Notes: generated by a model from the letters alone, not told the origin. Shown: positions 53,654-58,223, counted from the first letter of the stretch. The stretch is 64,000 nt of DNA from an uncultured Pseudomonadota bacterium (GCA_949298065.1 CASFUZ010000001.1:18793-82792); one strand, 5' to 3'. Translations and numbers: made by a program.

Positions 53654-56600
53654 ATGTCAAACCAAAATCCGGAAACCAAAAACGGTTCCTCTTTGCCTGA
53701 CTTCATGTCCGAAGGCAACAAGCTCAGCTACATTGAAGAAAACGATACTGAGAATTCTTGGCTTAACAACAATCTGCATAAATTGATGATATGGGTCAGC
53801 ATTATCTGGTTTGCAGTAGTGCTCATTTACATTACGCAGTTTTTCGGCTGGTCTAACCTGTTTTTAATGATGCCGGATGAGTTTGGCGGATTTTTAGCCG
53901 GCGTAACTTTGCCTTTAGCCATCATTTGGGTCGTTATGGCCTATATTGACCGTGGCTCAAGTTTTAAGCGCGAGGCCAAGTTTTTGCGTGCCTATATGAA
54001 CCAGCTTGTTTACCCCGAAGAAGGAAGTGCCACCACGGCTAAAGCTATGGCTGATGCCATCCGTTCGCAAGTGGTAGAGTTGCAGGAAGTAACCAAGCTT
54101 GCCACAGCCCAAACCGAAAAAATCAAGCAAGAACTCGGCGGCAGAGTTGATGATTTTGCTAAACTTGTTGGTGTTTTGGATAATTACTCCTCAAAGACAA
54201 TGACCGAACTGACCGAAGGTGTCAAAACCTTAGTTAAAAGTTTTGATTATGTAGCCGAACGCGCGGATAATGCCACTGGACAATTCAAAGAACAAATCCG
54301 CGATTTTAGCAATTCAGCCATTGTCATCAAAAAAGAAGTCTCAGACTTACTCAATGAGGTATCCCCAAAAATCAAAGAGATAAAAGAGTCTTCAGAATCC
54401 CTTAGCCTCATTACGGAAAACAACAACGCCAAGCTGGCAAAAGCCAACGAAATGTTATTGGAGTATGGCCACAAAACCGGCGAAACTATCGCTCATGTAT
54501 CAGAAGTTTTATCCGGACAAAGCGAGCGTCTGGAACAAGTATCTTCAAAAGCAGTCAAAAGCTGCGAAGAAGTCTTTGCACATTTGGATGATGGTATTAA
54601 TCGCATTGACGGCACCTTACGCGGACAAAGCAAGTTTATAGTTGACCACATAGAATCTCTAAACAAGCAAAACGATGCTTTGAGCAAAAACTTCAGCCGC
54701 CAAGGAGAATTTATTGCCGCAGAAGTTGATAAAGTTATGGCCAGAGCTAATGTTATTGAGGAAAGTATTTCCAACCAGGTTCGTGAGTTAGAGGGCGTAT
54801 CTGACCATATTCTGGAAAGTCTGAACAATGTTAGCGACAGCATCAGTGAAAAAGCCTCAAATCTGGAACAAAACGCAGGTTCAGCCGTCAGTCGCATTAA
54901 TGAGGTTGTCGGCGCTTTGGATAACGAAGTTGCTAAGCTTGGCGCTTTGACAGACATTACGGTTGAAAAGACCACCGCTGTTTCAGCCGATATTGAGAAT
55001 AAGCGCAACCAATTGCAAACAACTGCAGATGAAATTACGGTAAACTTACAAAAACTCAACCAACAACTTGAAAACAATGCCGAAGGCATCAATGTTCAGA
55101 CACAAACCTCTGTAGAACAACTCAATAAAGTTGCTGAATTTATGAATAAACACCGCGATAATTTGGTTGAAGTAACCAATATTGTTGTTTCTCAGAGCAA
55201 GGTCAGCGAAACCTCTTTAGCACAACAACAGCGCCATATTGCCGGCTCTGTCAACAAAATTGAAGAGACCAAGGCAGAGCTCAAACGCCAGATTGAAGAA
55301 CTTACCCGTGCGGCTGCCATTATTGATAGCGAAGCAGGGTCAGCCATCGGCCGCTTAAAAACGCAGATGGATCAAGCTCTCAAAGCCTCTGAAGATGTTG
55401 TTGTCCGCACCAAAGACATTGGCGCCAACTTACAAGAACAACTGGAAATCTTTGATGATTCTGCGGCTAACACTTTGGCAAAAATCAGCCAATTTGAAGG
55501 CATTGTAACAGAGCAACACAACAAGTTAGAGGGCTTATCCAGCAAGATTACAGATAGGGCCTCAACCGTAGCTAATGTTTTGATAGAACAGGCCAAAGTT
55601 ATTGACAAATCAACCGAGGATTCCACCAAAACATTCAACAATTTGCTCAACTCCTTTGAGAGCCAGTCAACCATGCTCAATTCCGTTGCAGAAAACACGG
55701 TTGGCTATGTATCAGATGTCGTTCGCGCTTTAGATGAAAAAGCCGAAGCCATCAACTTGCTGTTCAAACATCAGGAAAATGAGTTTTTTGATATTTGCGA
55801 CCGCATTTCAGAAAACACAAACAATATTGGTAGCTCTCTGAAAAATCAGGTTGCTGTTATAGAGCAAAGCGCCGACCGCGTCTTTGCCCGCATGGCCCTG
55901 TTGGAAGAAGATGTTAACAAAAGAGCGGAAAATGTCGTTGCCAACTCCACAAAATCTATTGACAGACTTGCCGAGATTGACAAGACCGTTGCCGAGCAAA
56001 ACAACGAAATCAACAAATTCATGCAGGATATGGCAGAAAAACTTAATAATGCCACAACCGAATTTCGGAGTAATCTGGATAATTTTGCCAATATTGTCAA
56101 AGATGTTCGTGAAGAGTCCAATACCGCTACGCTTACTTTGTTGAACAATTGTGAAAAACTTAAGCAGGCTAACACAAGTCTGGCAGATGAGACACGCAAT
56201 ATCTCAACTCAAATAGATGGTCAGATTAAAGAAATAGATCAGACAATTGTTAAGACACAAGCTCAGGCTGACACGTTAAGAGAAACCTTTGACCACCAAA
56301 AAGAAAGCTTAACAGACATTGTCAATGTTGTTTCCACGCAATCTCGTTTAGGCGAGGCTTCTATGGCGCAACAATATAAATATCTGTCTGATACGGCTTC
56401 TGATGTTGCTCAGAAGATGAGCGAAATTAACGCCAAATTTAAGGAAAACACGGATAATGTGGTTGAAACAGCCTCCAAAGCATCTTATGAATTTGATGTT
56501 TTAGGAGACAGATTGCTCAAGGTTAGCGAAGATATTGCCAAAGCTTCCAAGAACTCCATCAAGAACATTGAGCAGGTTAACTTAAGCCTCAACCAATGTG

Positions 56601-57649
56601 CTGAAGATTTGGCTTCCTCAGTTGACAATTCCGGCAAAAAACTCGGCGCGACAGTTGCTGATTATGAAAAATACATTGCCGGCTTTAATACGGTTACGGC
56701 AGAAGCCAGCAGTGGCGTTGCTGAAATCAGCAATATGATTGCCGACCAATCAGATAAGATGATAAAGATTTCGGAAGACACTAAAGAGCTGGTTGACTGC
56801 TTCAATGTTGTTTTGATGGATACCTCAAAGCAACTCTCTAACAGAGCCAATCAGGCCTATGACAAGGTTAAAGGGCTGGGAGAAAACTTAAAAACTTTGA
56901 GCTTGCAAGTAGAAGAGGCCGCCAATATGAGCGCCAAGCACTTTGAAAATTCCGGCAATAAGTTGCGTGCATCCATAAGCGAAGCAGCAGCGAATGCAGA
57001 AAGAATTTCTAACGAAATCAGAAGTTCAGGTGAGGTTTTCCTCAAACAATCAGGAGTACTGGTTGCCGCCACGGACGATACTTTGCAAAAAATCAATAAT
57101 GTTATGGACGTTTTGAATACCTCTTCTGAAGAATTCTCTCGCAGAGGTAACGAGCTGGTCAGCAAATCCGGCAGTTTCAACGAGCTCTTTAACAAACAGC
57201 TCAAAGTTTTAATTGAAACCTCTGACAAAGCTGACACCAAGTTAGCCTCTTTGCAAAAGAAATATGAAGGCATCAAGGTAGATACCTTCCTCAAGGACGC
57301 TTCCTTCATTATTGAAAAGCTGGAAACAGCCGCCGTAGATATCAACCGCATATTTAATCCTGATGCTGAAGAAGAGCTCTGGAAGAAATATTATAACGGT
57401 GATACGGCAGCTTTCGTTCGCCACTTATCAAAAAGTATGAGCAAGAGCCAAATACTATCCATCCGCTCAGAATTTGAGAAGAATTTGGAATTCCGCAACA
57501 TTGTAACCAAATATCTTTCCGAATTTGAGACCTTGGTAAGCAAAGCTCGTGAGAATGAGCGCTCCGGCATTCTGCTTTCGGTTATCTCCGGTGCAGATAT
57601 CGGTAAACTATACTACATTCTGGCTCGTTCTTTAGATAAGCTGAACTAA
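53654..57649 (+). CDS. Large (1331 aa) membrane-anchored coiled-coil protein (two N-terminal TM helices, then about 1100 aa of repetitive coiled coil, then a small C-terminal globular domain)
   Basis: TM1 WVSIIWFAVVLIYITQFFGW, TM2 GGFLAGVTLPLAIIWVVMAYI. Long heptad-like Q/E/K/N/L-rich repeats. The topology resembles polar/landmark coiled-coil proteins such as TipN. Confidence 0.55.
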   Translation: MSNQNPETKNGSSLPDFMSEGNKLSYIEENDTENSWLNNNLHKLMIWVSIIWFAVVLIYITQFFGWSNLFLMMPDEFGGFLAGVTLPLAIIWVVMAYIDRGSSFKREAKFLRAYMNQLVYPEEGSATTAKAMADAIRSQVVELQEVTKLATAQTEKIKQELGGRVDDFAKLVGVLDNYSSKTMTELTEGVKTLVKSFDYVAERADNATGQFKEQIRDFSNSAIVIKKEVSDLLNEVSPKIKEIKESSESLSLITENNNAKLAKANEMLLEYGHKTGETIAHVSEVLSGQSERLEQVSSKAVKSCEEVFAHLDDGINRIDGTLRGQSKFIVDHIESLNKQNDALSKNFSRQGEFIAAEVDKVMARANVIEESISNQVRELEGVSDHILESLNNVSDSISEKASNLEQNAGSAVSRINEVVGALDNEVAKLGALTDITVEKTTAVSADIENKRNQLQTTADEITVNLQKLNQQLENNAEGINVQTQTSVEQLNKVAEFMNKHRDNLVEVTNIVVSQSKVSETSLAQQQRHIAGSVNKIEETKAELKRQIEELTRAAAIIDSEAGSAIGRLKTQMDQALKASEDVVVRTKDIGANLQEQLEIFDDSAANTLAKISQFEGIVTEQHNKLEGLSSKITDRASTVANVLIEQAKVIDKSTEDSTKTFNNLLNSFESQSTMLNSVAENTVGYVSDVVRALDEKAEAINLLFKHQENEFFDICDRISENTNNIGSSLKNQVAVIEQSADRVFARMALLEEDVNKRAENVVANSTKSIDRLAEIDKTVAEQNNEINKFMQDMAEKLNNATTEFRSNLDNFANIVKDVREESNTATLTLLNNCEKLKQANTSLADETRNISTQIDGQIKEIDQTIVKTQAQADTLRETFDHQKESLTDIVNVVSTQSRLGEASMAQQYKYLSDTASDVAQKMSEINAKFKENTDNVVETASKASYEFDVLGDRLLKVSEDIAKASKNSIKNIEQVNLSLNQCAEDLASSVDNSGKKLGATVADYEKYIAGFNTVTAEASSGVAEISNMIADQSDKMIKISEDTKELVDCFNVVLMDTSKQLSNRANQAYDKVKGLGENLKTLSLQVEEAANMSAKHFENSGNKLRASISEAAANAERISNEIRSSGEVFLKQSGVLVAATDDTLQKINNVMDVLNTSSEEFSRRGNELVSKSGSFNELFNKQLKVLIETSDKADTKLASLQKKYEGIKVDTFLKDASFIIEKLETAAVDINRIFNPDAEEELWKKYYNGDTAAFVRHLSKSMSKSQILSIRSEFEKNLEFRNIVTKYLSEFETLVSKARENERSGILLSVISGADIGKLYYILARSLDKLN

Positions 57650-57659
57650 GGAGTTCTAG

Positions 57660-58223
57660 ATGATTTCGGCGGTTGCAAATCATATTCCGGATTTCTCTAA
57701 TCTGACGGCAGAAATATCAAAATCTGTCAGTCAGATTAAAGAGAAAGCGGCAACGCTCAATCTGGAAACAAGCTTTCCGACTGCCGAAAATCAAAGCAAT
57801 GTTTTTAGCAACCTAAACAGCTATGCTGTTTCATACCTAGAGCCGCAAGCGCTATATACGGTTCAAAAGCTCGCCTCGGATATTGCGCAAGGCGAAAAAT
57901 TAAACCGCAATCAGCAAGAAAAAAATGTCTTAAATGAAGAGCAAAAAGAGCCGCAGCAGCCGGAGAAAACTGAAAACCAAACAAGCTTTTGGGAAATGCT
58001 CAACGCATTTGAGGACAGCTCTTTACGCTTATACGGCTTTTCGGCTTATGGAATGAATGTTGAAAACAAGAGCAATCTGTTAGCCACAATGCCCTTTGTT
58101 CAAAGCATCAACGCATCTTATGCCGCCAATGCTTATGACACTGTGGCAAACCTAAACACACCGCCACAAGTTCTAATAGACTTTATGCATGAATTTAACC
58201 GCAGTTTTGATTATACGATATGA
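57660..58223 (+). CDS. Hypothetical 187-aa protein (Q/N/E-rich)
   Basis: Lies 11 nt after the coiled-coil gene and overlaps the dusB start by 4 nt (ATGA). It appears operonic. Confidence 0.4.
   Translation: MISAVANHIPDFSNLTAEISKSVSQIKEKAATLNLETSFPTAENQSNVFSNLNSYAVSYLEPQALYTVQKLASDIAQGEKLNRNQQEKNVLNEEQKEPQQPEKTENQTSFWEMLNAFEDSSLRLYGFSAYGMNVENKSNLLATMPFVQSINASYAANAYDTVANLNTPPQVLIDFMHEFNRSFDYTI

What the first reader, a model, noticed from the sequence alone, without database searches (positions are those of the whole stretch)
53654..58223. 1331-aa two-TM anchored coiled-coil giant plus coupled 187-aa partner immediately upstream of, and overlapping, dusB
The protein has a cytoplasmic N-terminus, two TM helices (WVSIIWFAVVLIYITQFFGW and GGFLAGVTLPLAIIWVVMAYI), then about 1100 aa of periodic coiled-coil with internal repeats of about 100 aa (...NLLNSFESQSTMLNSVAENTVGYVSDVVRALDEKAEAINLL... 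recurring in variants). It ends with a small C-terminal domain (WKKYYNGDTAAFVRHL...). It is followed after 11 nt by a Q/N/E-rich 187-aa ORF whose stop overlaps the dusB start (ATGA), so all three are probably co-transcribed with dusB-trkA. The topology is like polarity/landmark proteins (TipN-like) or membrane-tethered scaffolds. Its fusion into a housekeeping operon at the position where ntrBC/ntrYX are lost is striking.
Basis: partly seen in the sequence, partly recalled or inferred. Interest (0 to 1): 0.6.

Follow-up and report, generated by a model that had tools for sequence, protein, structure and literature searches.

The report
Gut-bacterial homolog of GPR/RgsE scaffold
The 1331-residue membrane-anchored helical giant is a compact relative of GPR/RgsE, the scaffold that organises polar growth in Agrobacterium and Sinorhizobium; in uncultured gut Alphaproteobacteria it is fixed directly upstream of dusB, so it belongs to a known family and is not a new kind of protein.

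Summary
ORFs of 1331 aa (53654-57649) and 187 aa (57660-58223) lie head-to-tail before dusB. The spacing is a 10-nt gap carrying AAGGAG, then an ATGA overlap, then a second ATGA overlap between dusB and trkA. The giant has two N-terminal TM helices. It then has about 1070 residues with a single proline and a phase-coherent 3.57-residue hydrophobic stripe. It ends in a conserved C-terminal domain of roughly 120-150 aa that models as a helical bundle.

The giant is not an orphan. Its C-terminal domain aligns end-to-end with the C-terminus of S. meliloti RgsE (SMc00190, 2089 aa): BLASTP E=3e-15, hhalign 99%. Its TM hairpin also aligns with RgsE's (E=2e-5). RgsE is the homolog of Agrobacterium GPR, the growth-pole-ring protein.

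The C-terminal domain occurs in 1641 protein clusters, always at the extreme C-terminus. It is nearly always combined with the same N-terminal hairpin.

Four features are specific to this gut clade:
- The protein is shorter than GPR/RgsE.
- It has no Pfam apolipoprotein signature and no Pro-rich regions.
- The gene sits directly upstream of dusB in 80 of 80 species.
- A fast-evolving small partner is present in 66 of 80 species.

Function is inferred by homology. Verdict: new member of a known kind, moderate-to-low interest.

The parts
53654..57649 (+). gpr/rgsE-family gene, 1331 aa: a membrane-anchored cytoplasmic helical scaffold
   Evidence: ORF. Full-length orthologs at 42-98% identity in 80 fetched gut-alphaproteobacterial species genomes. 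Homology to S. meliloti RgsE at both ends.
53786..53950 (+). TM hairpin: TM1 aa 45-65, periplasmic loop SNLFLMMPDEF, TM2 aa 78-99
   Evidence: Kyte-Doolittle maxima of 2.16 and 2.25. Identity to the window protein, averaged over 30-residue blocks across 32 family members, is 96% for aa 61-90 and 89% for aa 91-120. Aligns with RgsE aa 128-229, E=2e-5. The RF32 N-terminal profile finds this module in most of the full-length proteins fished with the C-terminal domain alone.
53951..54193 (+). Conserved juxtamembrane segment, aa 100-180 (DRGSSFKREAKFLRAYMNQLVYPEEG...)
   Evidence: 68-89% identity to the window protein across the family, by 30-residue block. Part of the N-terminal module matched in distant homologs.
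54041..57253 (+). Proline-free alpha-helical rod, aa 130-1200, with a phase-coherent 3.57-residue hydrophobic stripe and internal repeats
   Evidence: 1 Pro in 1070 aa. Period 3.57 with power 22.1 against a shuffle maximum of 2.8. Self-matches at offsets of about 382 and 107-136 aa. AF2 gives an all-helix model at low confidence.
56342..56395 (+). Conserved motif QSRLGEASMAQQYKYLSD (aa 897-914), the only helix break in the AF2 rod model. Its internal paralog is at aa 515-532 (nt 55196-55249).
   Evidence: Family consensus TQTRLGEASLAQQYKYLSD with several invariant columns. AF2 helix break at segment residues 262-275. Offset-382 repeat.
57293..57646 (+). Conserved C-terminal domain, aa 1214-1331 (core of the 1180-1331 profile): the family signature
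57648..57653 (+). AAGGAG Shine-Dalgarno for the 187-aa ORF, overlapping the giant's TAA stop
   Evidence: Sequence read directly.
57660..58223 (+). 187-aa small partner gene, clade-specific, with conserved N- and C-terminal motifs and a variable Q/N/E-rich middle
   Evidence: An ORF of 105-199 aa fills the giant-dusB gap in 66 of 80 loci. Conserved C-terminal motif Y-A-x-x-x-Y...P-x-V-L-I-D-F-M-H-E-Y-N-R-x-F-D-[YF]-x-I. pN 0.16-0.29 against pS 0.72-0.76. No family in Pfam, NCBIfam or PADLOC.
58220..59209 (+). dusB (tRNA dihydrouridine synthase B). Its start overlaps the 187-aa ORF's stop (ATGA).
   Evidence: TIGR00737, 356.7 bits. Overlap read directly.
59206..60564 (+). trkA. Its ATG overlaps the dusB stop (ATGA).
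   Evidence: NF007031, 473 bits, starting at ORF residue 12. Sequence.
60651..62186 (+). hfq (60651-60875) and hflX (60876-62186), the end of the co-directional cluster
   Evidence: ORFs and a typical Hfq sequence. hflX is syntenic in the loci.

Best explanation
Shown: the 1331-aa protein is a member of the GPR/RgsE family, found here in an uncultured gut alphaproteobacterium (the closest named relative is Candidatus Scatocola).

Anatomy:
- A two-helix hairpin anchors the protein in the inner membrane, with both ends in the cytoplasm.
- About 1070 proline-free residues form one very long amphipathic helical rod. Its hydrophobic stripe keeps the same 3.57-residue phase along the whole length.
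- The rod ends in a conserved C-terminal helical domain of roughly 120-150 aa.

Inferred by homology to GPR and RgsE:
- The rods self-associate along the stripe and through the C-terminal domain.
- They form a membrane-attached scaffold at the new or growing pole.
- The scaffold positions envelope-synthesis and Tol-Pal components and so maintains cell shape.

Inferred from gene arrangement:
- The 187-aa protein encoded 10 nt downstream is a clade-specific accessory that binds the scaffold. It has conserved ends and a disordered variable middle.
- The giant, the small partner, dusB and trkA are transcribed together and translationally coupled.
For: Homology to RgsE:
- The gene L082:4088-10357 encodes 2089 aa and sits next to petABC. 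This matches RgsE = SMc00190, 2089 aa, described as the GPR homolog in PMC7327166.
- BLASTP of the giant against it aligns the C-termini end-to-end (1214-1331 against 1972-2089, E=3e-15, no gaps) and the TM hairpins (45-145 against 128-229, E=2e-5).
- hhalign of the family C-terminal profile against the RgsE C-terminus gives 99%, E=7e-18.
- Intermediate homologs bridge at 34-40% identity, E=1e-19 to 1e-24.

Shared architecture:
- Of the proteins retrieved by the C-terminal domain alone (1641 clusters), the full-length ones examined mostly carry an N-terminal hairpin and a low-proline rod.
- These proteins also match the RF32 N-terminal profile.

Functional knowledge from papers:
- GPR has two N-terminal TM helices and 1700 aa of continuous helix. 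It forms a polar ring, is needed for rod shape, and its C-terminus is essential for function (PMC8262873).
- RgsE binds TolQ, RgsA and RgsS and is needed for normal shape (PMC7327166).

Operon:
- A 10-nt gap with a Shine-Dalgarno sequence and two ATGA overlaps.
- The giant is directly upstream of dusB in 80 of 80 species.
- The partner is under purifying selection.
Against: - No localisation or phenotype data exist for this clade, and the organism is uncultured.
- Krol et al. found no other Rgs proteins in the non-Rhizobiales orders that have RgsE homologs, and suggested a different role there.
- Family members occur in Sphingomonas and Haematospirillum, which are not known polar growers.
- The window protein has no PF01442 hit, whereas RgsE scores 258 bits.
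- Its rod period is 3.57, against 3.67 in RgsE.
- It lacks the Pro-rich regions of GPR and RgsE.
- The AF2 rod model is low-confidence (pLDDT 57), so how the rods pack is unknown.
- Promoter and terminator scans give nothing above chance, so co-transcription rests on spacing alone.
- Binding between the partner and the giant is pure inference.
Confidence: 0.6

Rival explanations
1. It is a GPR/RgsE homolog, but its function is the ancestral one, unrelated to polar growth. It would be a TipN-like birth-scar or division-site landmark, or a general envelope organiser attached to Tol-Pal. The polar-growth role would be a Rhizobiales specialisation that came with the switch to apolipoprotein-like 11-residue repeats.
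For: - The family is present in Sphingomonas (774 aa) and Haematospirillum (894 aa).
- It spans 1641 clusters, far beyond Rhizobiales.
- The 3.56-3.58 period is shared by most non-Rhizobiales members tested. RgsE and the PF01442-positive P0339 have 3.655-3.67.
- Krol et al. raise a different role outside Rhizobiales.
Against: There is no direct evidence for any localisation. Homology to TipN was not tested. Conservation of the end modules argues for conserved interactions.
Confidence: 0.3
2. It is a lipid- or membrane-surface-binding amphipathic-helix protein of the apolipoprotein or perilipin type. In this reading the long helix lies on the inner leaflet rather than forming a free rod.
For: - The amphipathic period is strong.
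- GPR is classified in PF01442 and has been proposed to sequester lipids.
- Some RF32 orthologs carry precomputed PF01442 or ApoLp-III hits.
Against: - The window protein has no PF01442 hit at E<=0.1.
- Its period is 3.57, not the 3.67 typical of 11-mer lipid-binding helices, and power at 3.67 is 0.1.
- The conserved globular C-terminal domain and the conserved mid-rod motifs suggest specific protein contacts.
Confidence: 0.07
3. It is a ZorA-like or other defence or motor-associated protein with a long coiled-coil tail.
For: PADLOC ZorA1 scores 57.7 bits (E=2e-16) and ZorA3 55.7 bits. NCBIfam ZorA_1 scores 31 bits.
Against: - All matches fall in the ZorA tail (profile positions 426-692 of 699), never in the MotA/ExbB/TolQ channel domain.
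- Scores are far below the curated cut-off (190).
- LmuB and JetC coiled coils hit as well, which points to generic coiled-coil similarity.
- There are two TM helices only, and there is no ZorB/MotB neighbour.
- The gene sits at a fixed core-genome position between parC and dusB in 80 of 80 species.
Confidence: 0.02
4. It is functionally tied to its operon partners (tRNA modification by DusB, K+ uptake by TrkA, Hfq/HflX), for example as a membrane tether for them.
For: The gene is directly upstream of dusB, with at most one small ORF between, in all 80 loci. This includes a 702-aa short variant.
Against: The linkage is confined to this clade. Homologs in S. meliloti, Shinella, Sphingomonas, Haematospirillum and two MAG lineages are elsewhere in the genome. 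dusB-trkA-hfq-hflX is a standard housekeeping array.
Confidence: 0.04

Closest known systems
RgsE (SMc00190) of Sinorhizobium meliloti
   Same: [quoted passage not shown]
- A very long proline-free helical centre.
- A homologous C-terminal domain aligned to the last residue (27% identity, E=3e-15), and a homologous hairpin region.
- A single copy per genome.
   Different: - 2089 aa against 1331 aa.
- RgsE scores 258 bits on PF01442 in 12 stretches; the window protein scores nothing.
- Rod period 3.67 against 3.57.
- RgsE has Pro-rich segments near both ends.
- Genomic context differs: a divergent Hpt gene and petABC in S. meliloti, against parC upstream and dusB downstream here.
- RgsE has no small downstream partner.
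GPR (Atu1348), growth pole ring protein of Agrobacterium tumefaciens
   Same: The layout described in PMC8262873 is the same: two N-terminal TM domains, about 1700 aa of continuous alpha-helix, and a functionally essential C-terminus. GPR is 42% identical to RgsE, so it is homologous to the window protein by transitivity.
   Different: The GPR sequence itself was not available for comparison. GPR is 2115 aa, has apolipoprotein-type domains, low-complexity regions and a 110-aa Pro-rich region before the C-terminus. Hexameric ring formation and polar growth are shown only for Agrobacterium.
TipN of Caulobacter crescentus
   Same: From my own knowledge: two N-terminal TM segments followed by a large cytoplasmic coiled-coil region, and a role as a new-pole landmark.
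   Different: No sequence comparison was possible. The 888-aa homolog I suspected might be TipN turned out to be from Haematospirillum. Membership is therefore untested.
ZorA tail (Zorya anti-phage system)
   Same: A long helical tail gives sub-threshold profile matches.
   Different: There is no MotA/ExbB/TolQ channel domain and no ZorB partner, and the gene is at a core-genome locus. The resemblance is in rod composition only.

Membership tests
GPR/RgsE family | Sequence homology to RgsE/GPR outside the repetitive rod (the C-terminal domain) | tested here: met
   BLASTP aligns 1214-1331 with RgsE 1972-2089, E=3e-15, no gaps. hhalign gives 99%, E=7e-18. Bridging homologs are 34-40% identical.
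GPR/RgsE family | [quoted passage not shown] | tested here: met
   KD peaks at aa 45-65 and 78-99, with K/R-rich sequence after TM2. BLASTP aligns 45-145 with RgsE 128-229, E=2e-5. The profile hit on RgsE is weak, 14.9 bits at residues 156-245.
GPR/RgsE family | Very long, continuous, proline-poor alpha-helical central region | tested here: met
   1 Pro in aa 130-1200. Amphipathic period power is 22.1 against a shuffle maximum of 2.8. The AF2 model is all-helix.
GPR/RgsE family | Multiple Pfam PF01442 (apolipoprotein A1/A4/E) domains in the rod | tested here: not met
   The window protein has no PF01442 hit at E<=0.1, whereas RgsE scores 257.8 bits in 12 stretches. The rod period is 3.57 against 3.67. 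A few RF32 orthologs carry precomputed PF01442 hits. This is a feature of the Rhizobiales subfamily rather than of the homologous end modules.
GPR/RgsE family | Pro-rich disordered regions near the N- and C-termini | tested here: not met
   The window protein has only a 44-aa N-terminal tail and no Pro-rich stretch. RgsE has 9-10 Pro per 100 aa at residues 1-100 and 1801-2000.
GPR/RgsE family | Localisation to the growth pole, ring or oligomer formation, and requirement for rod shape | not testable with these tools
   These are experimental properties shown for GPR and RgsE only.
GPR/RgsE family | Interaction with TolQ, RgsA and RgsS | not testable with these tools
   Bacterial two-hybrid and pulldown data exist for RgsE only. 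Whether Rgs homologs exist in this organism was not examined.
TipN | Sequence homology to Caulobacter TipN | not tested
No paper holding both 'TipN' and 'Atu1348' was found.
ZorA (Zorya) | MotA/ExbB/TolQ-type channel domain and an adjacent ZorB | tested here: not met
   PADLOC and NCBIfam matches cover only the tail part of the ZorA profiles and fall below the cut-offs. The neighbours are parC or orf679 upstream and dusB downstream.
SMC / TolA / MCP (names suggested by weak hits or by source annotations) | SMC ATPase heads, TolA domain III, or the MCP signalling domain | tested here: not met
   Only sub-threshold coiled-coil matches were found, for example SMC at 33.6 bits against a cut-off of 729. 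No MCPsignal or TolA hit was found.

The most novel reading that the evidence does not exclude
The hairpin, the 3.57-period rod and the C-terminal domain together define an ancient cytoskeletal scaffold found across the Alphaproteobacteria: 1641 clusters, with members from 670 to 2100 aa. GPR/RgsE would then be only the derived branch in which the rod was remodelled into apolipoprotein-like repeats. In the gut RF32-like clade the scaffold has acquired a dedicated small partner and obligatory translational coupling to dusB-trkA. Its rod length, set by in-phase repeat modules, would act as a molecular spacer for a function other than polar growth.
Probability: 0.25. Interest if true: 0.55.

Novelty: new member of a known kind. 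Interest (0 to 1): 0.3.

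Why it matters
This gives a function-bearing identity to a conserved giant 'hypothetical protein' that is present in at least 168 species-level genomes, mostly uncultured gut Alphaproteobacteria.

It also shows that the GPR/RgsE family can be recognised by two non-repetitive modules: the TM hairpin with its juxtamembrane segment, and a C-terminal domain of roughly 120 aa. 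Neither module is in Pfam or NCBIfam. The family reaches well beyond Rhizobiales, to Sphingomonas, Haematospirillum and many MAG lineages.

For people who study bacterial polarity, three things could help separate the conserved scaffold functions from the features specific to polar growth in Rhizobiales:
- the compact versions of 1331 aa and about 700 aa;
- the distinct 3.57-residue rod period;
- the clade-specific partner gene.

It does not open a new category of system.

Tried and rejected
I used the C-terminal domain alone.
- afdb50 fold search: the library was not available.
- The search for homologous proteins with a C-terminal profile of distant members: returned only short unnamed fragments.
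- The same tool with full-length mid-size homologs: identified Haematospirillum, not Caulobacter or TipN.
- AF2 of rod segment 640-1010: low confidence (pLDDT 57). It gives no information on packing.
- Promoter and terminator scans: nothing above chance.
- CtrA-box search (TTAA-N7-TTAA): one site in the window, fewer than expected by chance and not near the gene.
- Cluster look-ups of distant homologs: only 'hypothetical protein' names.

Rejected readings and why:
- SMC, TolA, MCP and MCE: only sub-threshold coiled-coil matches.
- ZorA: matches only in the tail region.
- A functional tie to ntr loss: the gene is upstream of dusB, and the dusB linkage is specific to this clade.

Full report
**1. 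Observation**

The ORF table reproduces the finding exactly. There is a 1331-aa ORF at 53654-57649 (+) and a 187-aa ORF at 57660-58223 (+). dusB is at 58220-59209, and its identity is firm (TIGR00737, 357 bits).

The junctions were read directly:
- The giant ends in TAA. An AAGGAG Shine-Dalgarno overlaps that stop, and the next ATG is 10 nt after the stop.
- The 187-aa ORF's stop and the dusB start form ATGA.
- The dusB stop and the true trkA start (ORF residue 12 by the NCBIfam alignment) form a second ATGA.
- hfq (74 aa, 60651-60875) and hflX follow.

This is the usual alphaproteobacterial dusB...trkA-hfq-hflX array without any ntr genes. The giant lies upstream of dusB, not in the place of the ntr genes.

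**2. Anatomy of the giant**

- Two hydrophobic segments (aa 45-65 and 78-99) are the only ones above a Kyte-Doolittle 19-mer mean of 1.6.
- They are joined by an 11-residue loop and followed by K/R-rich sequence. This indicates an N-in/C-in hairpin.
- Residues 130-1200 contain one proline.
- Hydrophobic residues in that stretch recur with a period of 3.57. Power is 22.1, against a maximum of 2.8 in shuffles.
- The phase is kept over the whole 1070 residues. Power at the canonical heptad value of 3.50 is zero.
- Self-comparison shows weak but significant repeats at offsets of about 382 aa (E=2e-8) and 107-136 aa. 'Repeats of about 100 aa' is therefore roughly right.
- In an alignment of 32 family members, identity to the window protein peaks at aa 45-180, 1020-1140 and 1200-1331.
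- AF2 of rod segment 640-1010 is all-helical but low-confidence (pLDDT 57). Its single break falls at the conserved motif QSRLGEASMAQQYKYLSD.

**3. Who has it**

Pfam, NCBIfam and PADLOC give only sub-threshold coiled-coil matches: ATG17-like, DUF948, MCE, SMC and the ZorA tail.

The large protein database returns full-length relatives of 1307-1458 aa at 44-98% identity. Those that carry a source name are all 'hypothetical protein', from gut MAGs.

Among species-representative genomes, 168 encode a relative. The closest are uncultured Alphaproteobacteria bins at 97-98%. Candidatus Scatocola faecigallinarum is at 90%.

In all 80 fetched loci the giant is followed by dusB, directly or after one small ORF, and kdsA-recO-parC lie upstream wherever the contig holds them. 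trkA and hflX follow dusB in nearly all loci long enough to show them; L018, L021 and L079 go from dusB straight to hflX. The 679-aa ORF upstream of the giant in the window is present in only a subset of these loci.

An ORF of 105-199 aa fills the giant-dusB gap in 66 loci. In 13 loci it is absent and the giant's stop abuts or overlaps the dusB start. One locus has an unrelated 55-aa ORF.

The small proteins share an N-terminal motif of about 35 aa and a C-terminal motif of about 45 aa around a variable middle. Non-synonymous differences (pN 0.16-0.29) are far below synonymous ones (pS 0.72-0.76). The gene is therefore real, but it evolves two to four times faster than the giant (pN 0.067-0.070 in the same three genomes).

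**4. The link to a known family**

A profile of the C-terminal domain was searched against 1.84 billion representative proteins. It found 1641 proteins at E<=1e-3 and 1116 at E<=1e-10. In every listed case the match was at the extreme C-terminus, in proteins up to 1900 aa.

Most of the full-length hits have an N-terminal TM hairpin and low proline content. They also match the RF32 N-terminal profile independently. The whole architecture is therefore conserved, not just one domain.

A tblastn of one such C-terminal domain against PLSDB hit several Rhizobiaceae chromosome-sized replicons deposited as 'plasmids' and a Sphingomonas 880-kb replicon. In S. meliloti the hit is the end of a 2089-aa gene annotated 'kinesin'. 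That gene sits next to petABC and is divergent from an Hpt gene. Its length and position identify it as RgsE (SMc00190, 2089 aa), which Krol et al. describe as the homolog of Agrobacterium GPR (42% identity).

Direct comparisons with RgsE:
- BLASTP aligns the window protein's residues 1214-1331 with RgsE 1972-2089: 27% identity, 53% positives, no gaps, E=3e-15.
- BLASTP aligns residues 45-145 with RgsE 128-229, E=2e-5.
- Profile-sequence hhalign gives 99% probability, E=7e-18.
- Intermediate homologs bridge at 34-40% identity.

Krol et al. already reported distant RgsE homologs in Rhodospirillales and Emcibacterales. Several of the MAGs here are labelled Azospirillum or Rhodospirillales in NCBI.

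**5. What differs from GPR/RgsE**

- The window protein is about 63% as long.
- It lacks the Pro-rich end regions.
- It has no PF01442 hit, whereas RgsE scores 258 bits.
- Its rod period is 3.57 rather than the 3.67 of RgsE.
- The 3.56-3.58 period is shared by the RF32, Haematospirillum and most other non-Rhizobiales members tested. The PF01442-positive homologs have 3.655-3.67.
- Linkage to dusB is confined to this clade, where it includes a 702-aa short variant.
- Homologs in S. meliloti, Shinella, Sphingomonas, Haematospirillum and two other MAG lineages sit elsewhere in the genome.

**6. Mechanism**

Shown:
- the membrane hairpin;
- the cytoplasmic amphipathic helical rod;
- the conserved C-terminal helical domain;
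- homology to RgsE;
- tight gene packing with dusB and trkA.

Inferred from the GPR and RgsE literature:
- self-assembly into a membrane-bound scaffold at the new or growing pole;
- organisation of envelope synthesis, possibly through TolQ-type contacts of the hairpin;
- C-terminal-domain-dependent oligomerisation.

Inferred from gene arrangement:
- the small protein is an accessory subunit;
- the genes form a single transcript.

The main rival keeps the homology but proposes an ancestral role other than polar growth. It is supported by the presence of the family in orders not known for polar growth, and by the absence of other Rgs proteins there.

The ZorA-like, lipid-binding and dusB-functional readings are weak, for the reasons given under rivals.

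**7. Verdict**

What is new is modest: the family signature modules and breadth, the compact form with a 3.57 period, the clade-specific partner, and the fixed dusB coupling.

Interest is 0.3. Novelty: new member of a known kind.

Noticed in passing
window 11010-20594 (-): A second giant ORF of 3194 aa with no Pfam family at E<=1e-5. The only TTAA-N7-TTAA (CtrA-box-like) site in the window lies in its upstream region (20704-20718), but one site is fewer than expected by chance.
   Followed up: partly
window 51503-53542 (+): A 679-aa ORF between parC and the giant, with no family in Pfam, NCBIfam or PADLOC. It is detectable in only 9 of the 80 related loci (for example L001, L002, L003, L005, L010, L017), so it is a lineage-specific insertion.
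   Followed up: partly
L082:3102-3470 (-), L083:5694-5987 (-), L084:2788-3156 (-): A small Hpt-domain gene lies divergently upstream of rgsE in S. meliloti and Shinella. One also lies upstream of the 774-aa family member in Sphingomonas, although there the Pfam Hpt match is below threshold (16.6 bits against a cut-off of 24.6) and the call rests mainly on the RefSeq annotation. This may be a conserved pairing across two orders. It is absent from the window.
   Followed up: partly
giant aa 130-1200 (window 54041-57253) and homologs P0003-P0339: The hydrophobic stripe has a period of 3.57 (about 25/7), phase-coherent over more than 1000 residues, in the window giant and the closest RF32 orthologs; other non-Rhizobiales members peak at 3.555-3.585, with weaker coherence in the longest ones. 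RgsE and the PF01442-positive homolog P0339 have 3.655-3.67. The rod geometry appears to have changed in the Rhizobiales branch.
   Followed up: partly
window 58220-62186 (+): dusB-trkA-hfq-hflX are contiguous, with dusB and trkA overlapping by ATGA and no ntrBC/ntrYX genes between them. Most of the 80 related loci have the same order. Three (L018, L021, L079) go from dusB straight to hflX with no trkA.
   Followed up: partly
PLSDB records CP090106.1, NZ_CP069303.1, NZ_CP104127/31/35: Replicons of 3.5-4.6 Mb from Sinorhizobium and Shinella are deposited or labelled as plasmids. CP090106.1 is titled 'pSymB' yet carries chromosomal genes such as petABC and rgsE. rgsE is annotated 'kinesin' there.
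   Followed up: no
P0135 (L085:197-2305), P0147, P0134: Natural short versions of the family, 667-702 aa, keep the N-terminal hairpin module and the C-terminal domain but carry only about 350-400 aa of rod. P0135, the only one whose context was looked up, sits directly upstream of dusB. Rod length is therefore highly variable within the clade.
   Followed up: partly
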